Notes under the pieces: model-generated
Told to the model about the DNA's origin: nothing
The model's database searches: none
What the model saw: the letters and a program-made list of their open reading frames with translations, nothing else
Assembly (NCBI GenBank): GCA_009914755.4
Contig: CP068257.2
Coordinates: 44,864,001-44,928,000, forward strand
Origin: the human T2T-CHM13v2.0 reference genome, Homo sapiens
Length of the DNA: 64,000 bases
Direction: 5' to 3'
Translations under genes and position numbers: made by a program
Shown here: piece after piece, positions 50,722 to 51,796 of the stretch
How the letters are laid out: each line of letters opens with the position of its first letter
Numbering within the stretch: position 1 is the stretch's first letter

Positions 50722-51004
50722 TTTTTTTTTTTTTTTTTTTTTTTTAGATAATGTCTTTATTGCCCAGGCTGGCTCTCACTGCAACCTCCACCTTCCAGGT
50801 TCAAGCAATTCTCATGCTTCAGCCTCCCGAGCAGCTGGGATTACAGGCACACACCACCACACTGAGCTAATTTTTTGTATTTTTAGCAGAGATGGGGTTT
50901 TGCCATGTTGGCCAGGCTGGTCTCAAACTCCTGGCCTCAAGTGATCTGCCTGCCTCGTCCTTCCAAAGTACAGGGATTACAGGTGTGAGTCACTGCAACC
51001 TGCC
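50722..51004 (-). mobile_element. Alu (antisense; 265 bp upstream of exon 9)
   Basis: t25 agataatgtctttattgcccaggctggctctcactgcaacctccaccttccaggttcaagc...ggtgtgagtcactgcaacctgcc. Confidence 0.9.
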
Positions 51005-51268
51005 TCTGCTGGCTCTTCTGTAGTCCAGATTTTCTGTAATAAAATCCTATTTTATTTTTGTATTAAGAAAAATAAATCTGTAAGCTATTTTTAAGAGAAA
51101 ACAATGATGTTCATTACAACATTGTGCAGAATAGTTATTAGTTGGAAACTACCTAAATTTCCACTAATGGGGTAATGGTATATTTCGGGGTATTTTGGTT
51201 TCTACATTAAAATGTTAATTACTTGTTTCTTAAATTTTACATTGCTTAGTATTTTTATTTTGTTTTAG

Positions 51269-51360
51269 GTAAACTTTGGAGTCGGAGTTTAAAACTAGCT
51301 TATACTCTACTTAATAAACTGACAAGTAAGAATGAACCTCTACTTAAACCTGGAGACAGA
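51269..51360 (+). CDS. DIP2A: DIP2A coding exon (probable exon 9) encoding (G)KLWSRSLKLAYTLLNKLTSKNEPLLKPGDR
   Basis: ttttattttgttttAG acceptor 51267-51268, GTAAGT donor 51361; 92 nt phase 1-0; conserved DIP2 motif TLTYGKLWSRS spans the junction. Confidence 0.85.
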
Positions 51361-51494
51361 GTAAGTAACTAGAATGTCACTTTGTTGGAAGGAGCAAAAG
51401 CAGGGACTTAAATAATCTGTTTCATTGAAATTAGTGTTCTATCATTTAGTTAGAATTACAGCATTAATACAAGGGATTTAAAATCAGCAGTGAG

Positions 51495-51796
51495 GACTGG
51501 GTGCGGTGGCTCATGCCTGTAATCCTAGCACTTTGGGAGGCTGTGGTGAGCGGATTGCCTGAGCTCAGGAGTTTGAGACCAGCCTGGGCAACATGGCAAA
51601 ACCCTGTCTCTACTAAAAATACAAAAAATTAGCTGGGCGTGGTGGTGCGTGCCTGTAATGCCAGCTACCCGGGAGGCTGAGGCATGAGAATCTCTTGAAC
51701 CCAGGAGGTGGAGGTTGTAGTGAGCCAAGATCTCGCCACTGCACTCCAGCCTGGCGACAGAGTGAGACTCCGTCTCAAAGAGAAAAAAAAAAAAAA
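51495..51796 (+). mobile_element. Alu (sense; 135 bp downstream of exon 9), TSD agcagtga
   Basis: ggactgggtgcggtggctcatgcctgtaatcctagcactttgggaggctgtggtgagcggattgcctgagctcaggagtttgagaccagcc...ctccgtctcaaagagaaaaaaaaaaaaaa. Confidence 0.95.

What the first reader, a model, noticed from the sequence alone, without database searches (positions are those of the whole stretch)
50722..51796. Exon 9 (92 nt) is bracketed by inverted Alus
An antisense Alu (50722-51004) lies 265 bp upstream of exon 9 (51269-51360) and a sense Alu (51495-51796) lies 135 bp downstream. Inverted Alu pairs flanking an exon can pair across it. This is the configuration known to promote back-splicing (circRNA) or exon skipping, and it creates long dsRNA substrates for ADAR editing. 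Skipping of this 92-nt exon would shift the reading frame.
Basis: inference. Interest (0 to 1): 0.5.

Follow-up and report, generated by a model that had tools for sequence, protein, structure and literature searches.

The report
Inverted Alu pair around DIP2A exon 9
Two ordinary Alu repeats in opposite orientation do sit on either side of a small, essential exon of the human DIP2A gene and should be able to pair in the pre-mRNA, but nothing found here shows that this makes a circular RNA or causes the exon to be skipped.

Summary
An antisense AluS (50722-51004) and a sense AluS (51494-51796) lie 264 nt upstream and 133 nt downstream of a 92-nt exon (51269-51360). Each has its own target-site duplication. 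The arms are 226 nt long and 83% complementary. The gene is human DIP2A, shown by an exact database match, and this is the ninth coding exon. Skipping it shifts the frame and gives a stop codon 20 nt into exon 10.

In isolation the two Alus fold into a 251-bp duplex, about 226 kcal/mol more stable than a control with one Alu flipped. Neither Alu has a closer inverted partner. However, twelve other antisense Alus in the 17.5-kb upstream intron form stronger duplexes and win the partner in larger folds. Whichever pairs, exon 9 is still looped out.

No evidence was found for the proposed consequences. The exon is far shorter than those that circularise well, its splice sites look good, and all 15 annotated human and ape isoforms checked keep it. 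No paper text links DIP2A to a circRNA, and seven circRNA supplements gave only gene-level counts of 2-3 circular reads. The most likely outcome is low-level ADAR editing of intronic Alu RNA. This is an ordinary instance of a known configuration. Interest is low.

The parts
50722..51004 (-). Antisense AluS-type element in DIP2A intron 8. In the pre-mRNA it reads as U24 followed by the Alu reverse complement. It has a 19-nt internal deletion and a decayed 3' end.
   Evidence: blastn against recalled Alu consensi; alignment A1; sequence
50713..50721 (.). Left copy of the target-site duplication of the antisense Alu (TCTGCTTGC). The right copy, TCTGCTGGC, is at 51005-51013.
   Evidence: read directly
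51269..51360 (+). DIP2A coding exon 9, 92 nt, encoding residues ~368-398 of NP_055966.2, in the conserved stretch that DIP2 relatives annotate as AMP-binding (PF00501). Acceptor is ttttattttgttttag|G; donor is AGA|gtaagt.
   Evidence: PF00501 on homologues covering this stretch; AMP-binding domains on the full protein
51494..51796 (+). Sense AluS-type element with an A14 tail. It is the only Alu in intron 9.
51486..51493 (.). Left copy of the target-site duplication of the sense Alu (AGCAGTGA). The right copy is at 51796-51803.
   Evidence: read directly
33792..51268 (+). Intron 8, 17,477 nt, of GC-AG type. It holds 15 Alus, 13 of them antisense; these are all alternative partners for the intron-9 sense Alu.
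49533..49834 (-). Full-length antisense AluS. It takes the sense Alu as partner in the 2.5-kb minimum-free-energy fold (257 nt paired; duplex -441 kcal/mol).
48597..48885 (-). Full-length antisense AluS. It gives the strongest predicted duplex with the sense Alu (-474 kcal/mol) and is the partner in the 5.1-kb fold.
51361..54301 (+). Intron 9, 2,941 nt. It contains no antisense Alu, so the sense Alu has no partner within its own intron.
54302..54412 (+). Exon 10. If exon 9 is skipped, the shifted frame reaches a stop codon at 54322, 90 nt before the exon 10 donor, so nonsense-mediated decay is predicted.

Best explanation
Two AluS retrotransposons inserted independently, in opposite orientations, into the introns on either side of a constitutive, conserved, frame-critical 92-nt exon of human DIP2A. 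In some pre-mRNA molecules the sense Alu in intron 9 pairs with an antisense Alu in intron 8. On kinetic grounds the partner is most often the nearest one, 490 nt away; otherwise it is one of 12 stronger but more distant ones. The result is an imperfect duplex of about 250 bp with exon 9 in the loop. The main consequence is scattered low-level A-to-I editing of the intronic Alu RNA by ADAR. The introns are then removed and degraded, and exon 9 is included normally. Back-splicing of exon 9 alone and exon-9 skipping are at most rare by-products. The anatomy, the predicted pairing and the frameshift are shown here. The editing and the lack of any splicing effect are inferred.
For: - Both Alus are confirmed, each with a poly(A) tail and its own target-site duplication.
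- The arms are 226 nt and 83% complementary.
- The 1.1-kb fold pairs them over 251 bp in 27 helices, the longest 25 bp, with mean pairing probability 0.82. Flipping one Alu raises the minimum free energy from -521.6 to -295.8 kcal/mol.
- Each Alu is the other's nearest inverted partner, and intron 9 has no internal competitor.
- Inverted Alus within 2 kb of each other are documented editing substrates. In 8% of edited intronic Alus the nearest inverted partner lies across an exon (Lev-Maor 2008, PMC2533698).
- Exon 9 has a U-rich acceptor tract and a GTAAGT donor. It encodes a conserved part of the protein. It is present in all 15 annotated human and ape isoforms checked.
- Short exons circularise poorly (PMC4201285).
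- The Alus lie well beyond the tens-of-nt range in which an intronic Alu shifted splicing of RABL5 exon 3.
- Nothing in the literature held here links DIP2A to a circRNA.
Against: - No RNA data were available, so neither editing nor the absence of back-splice or skip junctions was observed.
- Protein isoform catalogues would not list a frameshifted transcript that is degraded by nonsense-mediated decay, so one search is weak evidence against low-level skipping.
- Salzman 2013 recorded 2-3 circular junction reads for DIP2A in AG04450 and HeLa-S3 cells, with the exons unspecified. The gene therefore does back-splice somewhere.
- The supplement tables searched were truncated when stored, so their silence is weak evidence.
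- The geometry, with Alus 133-264 nt from the splice sites and a long, slowly removed GC-AG upstream intron, is otherwise favourable for back-splicing.
Confidence: 0.65

Rival explanations
1. Back-splicing does use this locus, but it produces multi-exon circles. Antisense Alus of intron 8 pair with the sense Alus of intron 13 (57617, 58801) or intron 17 (62912). This joins the exon 9 acceptor to the exon 13 or exon 17 donor, giving circles of 540 or 934 nt. The intron-9 Alu then acts mainly as a competing decoy.
For: - Intron 8 is long (17.5 kb) and holds 13 antisense Alus, while every Alu downstream of exon 9 is sense.
- The proximal antisense Alu forms duplexes with the sense Alus at 58801 and 62912 that are as stable as with the intron-9 Alu (-372.9 and -361.7 against -369.5 kcal/mol).
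- Circle sizes of 540-934 nt fall in the range that circularises well.
- DIP2A has a few circular junction reads in Salzman 2013.
Against: No exon-level junction data were found. The distances across are 6.6-12 kb, so contact is much less likely than with the intron-9 Alu. DIP2A was absent from six other circRNA supplements searched.
Confidence: 0.25
2. The pair drives production of a 92-nt single-exon circRNA from exon 9.
For: Inverted repeats lie 264 and 133 nt from the splice sites. Each is the other's nearest partner. A strong duplex is predicted. Inverted repeats of 30-40 nt are enough for circularisation in minigenes.
Against: - The exon is 92 nt, and ZKSCAN1 exons of 400 nt or less circularised poorly or not at all.
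- No DIP2A circRNA is named in any held paper.
- The same paper notes that not all repeats support circularisation and that very stable hairpins can inhibit it.
Confidence: 0.08
3. Looping out exon 9 causes regulated skipping. The frameshifted mRNA is removed by nonsense-mediated decay, giving primates a way to lower DIP2A output.
For: Skipping gives a stop codon 20 nt into exon 10, 90 nt before the next junction, so decay is predicted. [quoted passage not shown]
Against: - The Alus are 264 and 133 nt away, whereas the RABL5 effect was lost with 25-75 nt of added distance.
- In that case both Alus were in the same upstream intron.
- Exon 9 has a GTAAGT donor and a good pyrimidine tract.
- All annotated isoforms include it.
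- The duplex shortens the 20-kb distance from exon 8 to exon 10 by only about 1.1 kb.
Confidence: 0.07
4. The Alus never pair to any meaningful extent in vivo. Each folds on itself or is coated or unwound by proteins (hnRNP C on the U24 tract, DHX9, and others), so the arrangement is inert.
For: Each Alu folds on its own (-73.9 and -112.8 kcal/mol). In larger folds the proximal antisense Alu is left paired with itself or with local sequence. That long U tracts of antisense Alus bind hnRNP C, and that DHX9 resolves inverted Alu duplexes, is established knowledge and was not tested here.
Against: Pairing gains about 226 kcal/mol over the flipped control. Inverted Alus less than 2 kb apart are generally found to be edited, which requires pairing.
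Confidence: 0.15

Closest known systems
Inverted Alus across circularising exons (Jeck 2013; Zhang 2014; the ZKSCAN1, HIPK3 and EPHB4 minigenes of Liang & Wilusz 2014)
   Same: Reverse-complementary Alus sit in the two introns flanking the exon, within a few hundred nt of the splice sites. The upstream intron is long. The downstream Alu has no competing partner in its own intron.
   Different: The enclosed exon is only 92 nt, whereas exons that circularise singly are long and those of 400 nt or less failed in ZKSCAN1. No back-splice junction is documented. Thirteen upstream Alus compete for one downstream Alu.
[quoted passage not shown]
   Same: Intronic inverted Alus pair with each other. An antisense Alu lies upstream of a conserved exon.
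   Different: In RABL5 both Alus lie in the same upstream intron and the proximal one is 24 nt from the exon. Here they straddle the exon at 264 and 133 nt. No skipped isoform is known.
Intronic inverted-Alu dsRNA as a substrate for promiscuous ADAR editing (Athanasiadis, Levanon and Kim, 2004)
   Same: Two Alus of opposite orientation lie less than 2 kb apart in one transcript, with a predicted imperfect duplex of about 250 bp.
   Different: Nothing differs in the anatomy. The editing itself was not observed here.

Membership tests
Alu SINE (AluS-type) | About 280-300 nt with dimeric similarity to the Alu consensus over its full length | tested here: met
   blastn gives 85% identity (positions 1-229) for the antisense Alu and 89% (positions 5-285) for the sense Alu, against a recalled AluSx. 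AluSx scores higher than AluJo or AluY for both (alignment). The consensus sequences came from memory, so the subfamily call is approximate.
Alu SINE (AluS-type) | A 3' poly(A) tail and flanking target-site duplications, the marks of retrotransposition | tested here: met
   T24 at 50722-50745 and A14 at 51783-51796. Target-site duplications are TCTGCT(T/G)GC and AGCAGTGA.
Exon circularisation mediated by inverted Alus across the exon | Reverse-complementary repeats in both flanking introns | tested here: met
   Arms of 226 nt, 83% complementary; 251 predicted bp.
Exon circularisation mediated by inverted Alus across the exon | Pairing across the exon is not out-competed by pairing within an intron | tested here: inconclusive
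   Intron 9 has no antisense Alu, and the nearest sense Alu in intron 8 is 9.7 kb away. However, 12 other intron-8 antisense Alus form stronger duplexes and win in larger folds. All of them still span exon 9.
Exon circularisation mediated by inverted Alus across the exon | The circularised exon or exons are long enough; exons that circularise singly are longer than average | tested here: not met
   The exon is 92 nt. ZKSCAN1 exons of 400 nt or less circularised poorly or not at all (PMC4201285).
Exon circularisation mediated by inverted Alus across the exon | An observed back-splice junction or RNase-R-resistant product | not testable with these tools
   No RNA data were available. Text searches found no DIP2A circRNA. 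Salzman 2013 gives only gene-level counts of 2-3 reads. Six other supplements had no DIP2A entry, and stored tables may be truncated.
Alu-dependent alternative exon (skipping) | An Alu close enough to the exon to affect splice-site recognition (tens of nt in the studied case) | tested here: not met
   The gaps are 264 nt upstream and 133 nt downstream. The RABL5 effect was relieved by adding 25-75 nt.
Alu-dependent alternative exon (skipping) | Evidence that the exon is alternatively skipped | tested here: not met
   All 15 annotated human, chimpanzee, bonobo and gorilla DIP2A isoforms checked contain exons 8-9-10 in sequence. Transcripts degraded by nonsense-mediated decay would not appear in this set, so the test is weak.
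ADAR-edited inverted-Alu dsRNA | Opposite-orientation Alus within about 2 kb in the same transcript, forming long dsRNA | tested here: met
   They are 490 nt apart on the same strand of one gene. The predicted duplex has 251 bp, and 113 adenosines sit in paired positions.
ADAR-edited inverted-Alu dsRNA | Clusters of A-to-G mismatches between RNA and DNA | not testable with these tools
   No RNA-seq data or REDIportal access. The only paper holding DIP2A, RNA editing and Alu together mentions DIP2A for its expression level alone.

The most novel reading that the evidence does not exclude
The inverted pair acts as a primate-specific dosage control on DIP2A. When the duplex persists, for example with low ADAR or DHX9 activity, exon 9 is either back-spliced into an unusually small 92-nt circle or skipped. 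Either outcome removes a productive mRNA, because skipping gives a stop codon 20 nt into exon 10. DIP2A protein output would then be tied to the cell's handling of dsRNA.
Probability: 0.05. Interest if true: 0.55.

Novelty: already known. Interest (0 to 1): 0.12.

Why it matters
If the pair did alter exon 9 splicing, it would give primates a way to lower output of DIP2A, a chromosome-21 gene implicated in neurodevelopment. It would also give an unusually small circRNA. As things stand, it is one of thousands of inverted Alu pairs in Alu-rich human genes. Its main use is as a predicted ADAR editing site and as a caution: an inverted-Alu arrangement alone does not predict back-splicing.

Tried and rejected
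1. A PDB sequence search with the 30-aa exon peptide gave only chance WD40 hits.

2. The search for homologous proteins with 246 aa from exons 8-13 confirmed the DIP2 and AMP-binding family but returned only fragments of 427 aa or less and did not resolve the paralogue. An exact look-up of the full-length protein resolved it.

3. Literature: 'DIP2A'+'circRNA', circDIP2A spelling variants, 'DIP2A'+'hsa_circ' and 'DIP2A'+'RNA editing'+'Alu' found nothing relevant. One search was badly specified, did not require DIP2A, and returned only generic circRNA papers.

4. Supplement searches for DIP2A:
   - Salzman 2013 gave gene-level counts only.
   - Guo 2014, Zhang 2016, Ragan 2019, Gruhl 2021, Memczak 2015 and the NSCLC circRNA atlas had no entries.
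   - Jeck 2013 is not held.
   - Stored tables may be truncated (those of Salzman 2013 are), so these negatives are weak.

5. I looked for non-Alu complementary segments between the two intron flanks. Only 12-14-nt AT-rich matches turned up, and they involve the exon itself. This idea was rejected.

6. I considered whether a closer Alu partner exists. None does.

7. Conservation of the two insertions in other primates could not be examined. The sequence collections do not offer primate genomic DNA for a gene longer than 100 kb.

Full report
**Observation**

- A T24 tract begins at 50722 and is followed by the reverse complement of an Alu, ending at 51004.
- A forward Alu runs from 51494 to an A14 tail ending at 51796.
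- blastn with Alu consensus sequences recalled from memory scores both best as AluS-type: 85% identity over consensus positions 1-229 for the upstream element and 89% over positions 5-285 for the downstream one.
- An alignment shows that the upstream element has a 19-nt internal deletion and a decayed 3' end.
- Each element is flanked by its own short direct repeat, which marks two independent retrotransposition events. These are TCTGCT(T/G)GC at 50713-50721 and 51005-51013, and AGCAGTGA at 51486-51493 and 51796-51803.
- The repeat finder reports the pair as inverted arms of 226 nt, 83% complementary, 498 nt apart.

**The exon and the gene**

The exon lies at 51269-51360, between ttttag| and |gtaagt. 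It is 92 nt long and encodes KLWSRSLKLAYTLLNKLTSKNEPLLKPGDR after a 2-nt split codon.

A DIP2-family protein recalled from memory was used only as a probe. It placed 17 exons on the + strand at 100% identity. A splice-aware refinement gave exact boundaries that reproduce residues 31-698 of the probe. An exact-sequence look-up then showed that the probe is human DIP2A isoform a (NP_055966.2, DIP2A_HUMAN).

The gene name is therefore confirmed by a tool. With exon 1 upstream of the window, this is the ninth coding exon.

- Intron 8 is 33792-51268, 17,477 nt. It begins with GC, a donor that the reading frame forces.
- Intron 9 is 51361-54301, 2,941 nt.
- Removing exon 9 shifts the frame and gives a stop codon 20 nt into exon 10, at 54322. 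That is 90 nt before the next exon junction, so nonsense-mediated decay is predicted.
- The exon lies in a conserved stretch of the protein that DIP2 relatives annotate as AMP-binding.

**Is it more than chance?**

The window holds 45 Alu elements, 18.5% of its bases, of which 31 are antisense to the gene. Five exons have nearest flanking Alus in opposite orientation. Exon 9 has much the tightest arrangement, with a 490-nt gap against 1,301 nt or more for the others.

About 1.9% of random 92-nt placements in the non-Alu part of this window would be bracketed as tightly. That gives about 0.3 expected among 16 internal exons. The arrangement is real and locally the most extreme, but it is not surprising in an Alu-rich gene.

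**Pairing**

- Folded alone, the 1.1-kb stretch pairs the two Alus end to end and leaves the exon in a loop of about 490 nt. The minimum free energy is -521.6 kcal/mol.
- The duplex has 251 inter-Alu base pairs in 27 helices. The longest uninterrupted helix is 25 bp, and 24 pairs are G-U. The mean probability that a sense-Alu nucleotide pairs with the antisense Alu is 0.82.
- Flipping the sense Alu to make a direct-repeat control raises the energy to -295.8 kcal/mol. Inverted orientation is therefore worth about 226 kcal/mol.
- The splice sites are not inside the duplex.
- No other complementary segments link the two intron flanks.

**Competition**

No closer partner exists.

- Intron 9 contains only the sense Alu.
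- Every Alu-like element downstream as far as 64000 is also sense.
- The nearest sense Alu within intron 8 is 9.7 kb from the proximal antisense Alu.

However, the sense Alu has 13 possible antisense partners in intron 8, and the proximal one is the weakest. Its duplex energy is -369.5 kcal/mol, against -397 to -474 for the others. In a 2.5-kb fold the sense Alu pairs with the Alu at 49533, and in a 5.1-kb fold with the Alu at 48597. In both cases the proximal Alu is left folded on itself.

Simple loop-closure scaling would still favour the nearest partner, by roughly 8-fold and 18-fold respectively. That scaling is my inference, not a measurement. Which Alu actually pairs is therefore open. 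The topology is not: any of these partners loops out exon 9 and nothing else.

**Consequences**

I found no support for back-splicing of exon 9 alone or for skipping.

- Liang & Wilusz 2014 report that ZKSCAN1 exons of 500 nt or more circularised well and those of 400 nt or less circularised poorly or not at all. They also report that not all repeats support circularisation (PMC4201285). This exon is 92 nt.
- Lev-Maor 2008 show that the splicing effect of an intronic Alu depends on close proximity. The distance was 24 nt in RABL5, and inserts of 25-75 nt progressively restored inclusion. In that case both Alus lay in one intron (PMC2533698). Here the distances are 264 and 133 nt.
- Exon 9 has a U-rich acceptor tract and a GTAAGT donor.
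- All 15 annotated human, chimpanzee, bonobo and gorilla DIP2A protein isoforms retrieved contain exons 8, 9 and 10 in sequence. Frameshifted transcripts degraded by nonsense-mediated decay would not be in that set.
- Text searches found no paper that links DIP2A to a circRNA.
- Salzman 2013 lists DIP2A with 2-3 circular junction reads in AG04450 and HeLa-S3 cells, at gene level only.
- Six other circRNA supplements contained no DIP2A entry. Stored tables may be truncated (those of Salzman 2013 are), so these negatives are weak.

The same Lev-Maor paper supports the remaining prediction. Inverted Alus within 2 kb of each other form dsRNA and are edited, and in 8% of edited intronic Alus the nearest inverted partner lies across an exon. 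The likeliest real consequence is therefore ordinary low-level ADAR editing of intronic Alu RNA. I could not test this.

**A rival worth checking**

If the exon 9 acceptor is used for back-splicing at all, the more plausible products are multi-exon circles. Exons 9-13 would give 540 nt and exons 9-17 would give 934 nt. These would form by pairing of intron-8 antisense Alus with the sense Alus of introns 13 and 17. Their duplex energies with the proximal antisense Alu match that of the intron-9 Alu. In that scheme the intron-9 Alu would act as a competitor.

**Verdict**

The arrangement is the known permissive one and no closer competitor exists. However, exon size, the distances, the splice-site quality, the annotation and the literature all point to a constitutive exon. 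This is an ordinary instance of a well-known arrangement. Novelty: already known. Interest: low.

Noticed in passing
window 33791-33797: Intron 8 of DIP2A begins with GC (TATG|GCAAGT), so it is a GC-AG intron. The nearby GT at 33796 would give an in-frame stop when joined to exon 9. The reading frame of NP_055966.2 therefore forces the GC donor.
   Followed up: partly
window 47814-47918 (+): A full-length match to U6 snRNA (Rfam RF00026, 75.7 bits, model positions 1-105) lies inside intron 8. It is probably a U6 retro-pseudogene.
   Followed up: no
window 57975-58272 (+): A full-length match to metazoan 7SL/SRP RNA (RF00017, 147.8 bits, model positions 1-299) lies inside intron 13. It is probably a 7SL pseudogene. 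Because it is related to Alu, it can also pair weakly with antisense Alus (-164 kcal/mol).
   Followed up: no
window 33792-64000: Alu orientation is strongly asymmetric. Thirteen of the 15 Alus in intron 8 are antisense to the gene, while every Alu-like element downstream of exon 9 is sense (51494, 57617, 57972, 58801, 62912). Exon 9 sits at the switch point.
   Followed up: partly
window 50722-50990: In the pre-mRNA the antisense Alu presents signals typical of a cryptic Alu exon. A U24 tract is followed by AG at 50746-50747, then CCCAG|G at about 50767, and then a donor-like CAG|GTGTGAG at 50980-50989. I did not check whether this is ever used as an exon.
   Followed up: no
window 17807-18373; 24318-24907; 45120-45727: A sense Alu is nested inside an antisense Alu at 17807-18373. 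Two head-to-tail antisense Alu dimers of about 590-610 nt lie at the other two sites.
   Followed up: no
window 50630-50700: A TA/CA-rich run of simple sequence (gtatatatatgcacacatatgtacatatacatatgtatac) lies directly upstream of the insertion site of the antisense Alu.
   Followed up: no
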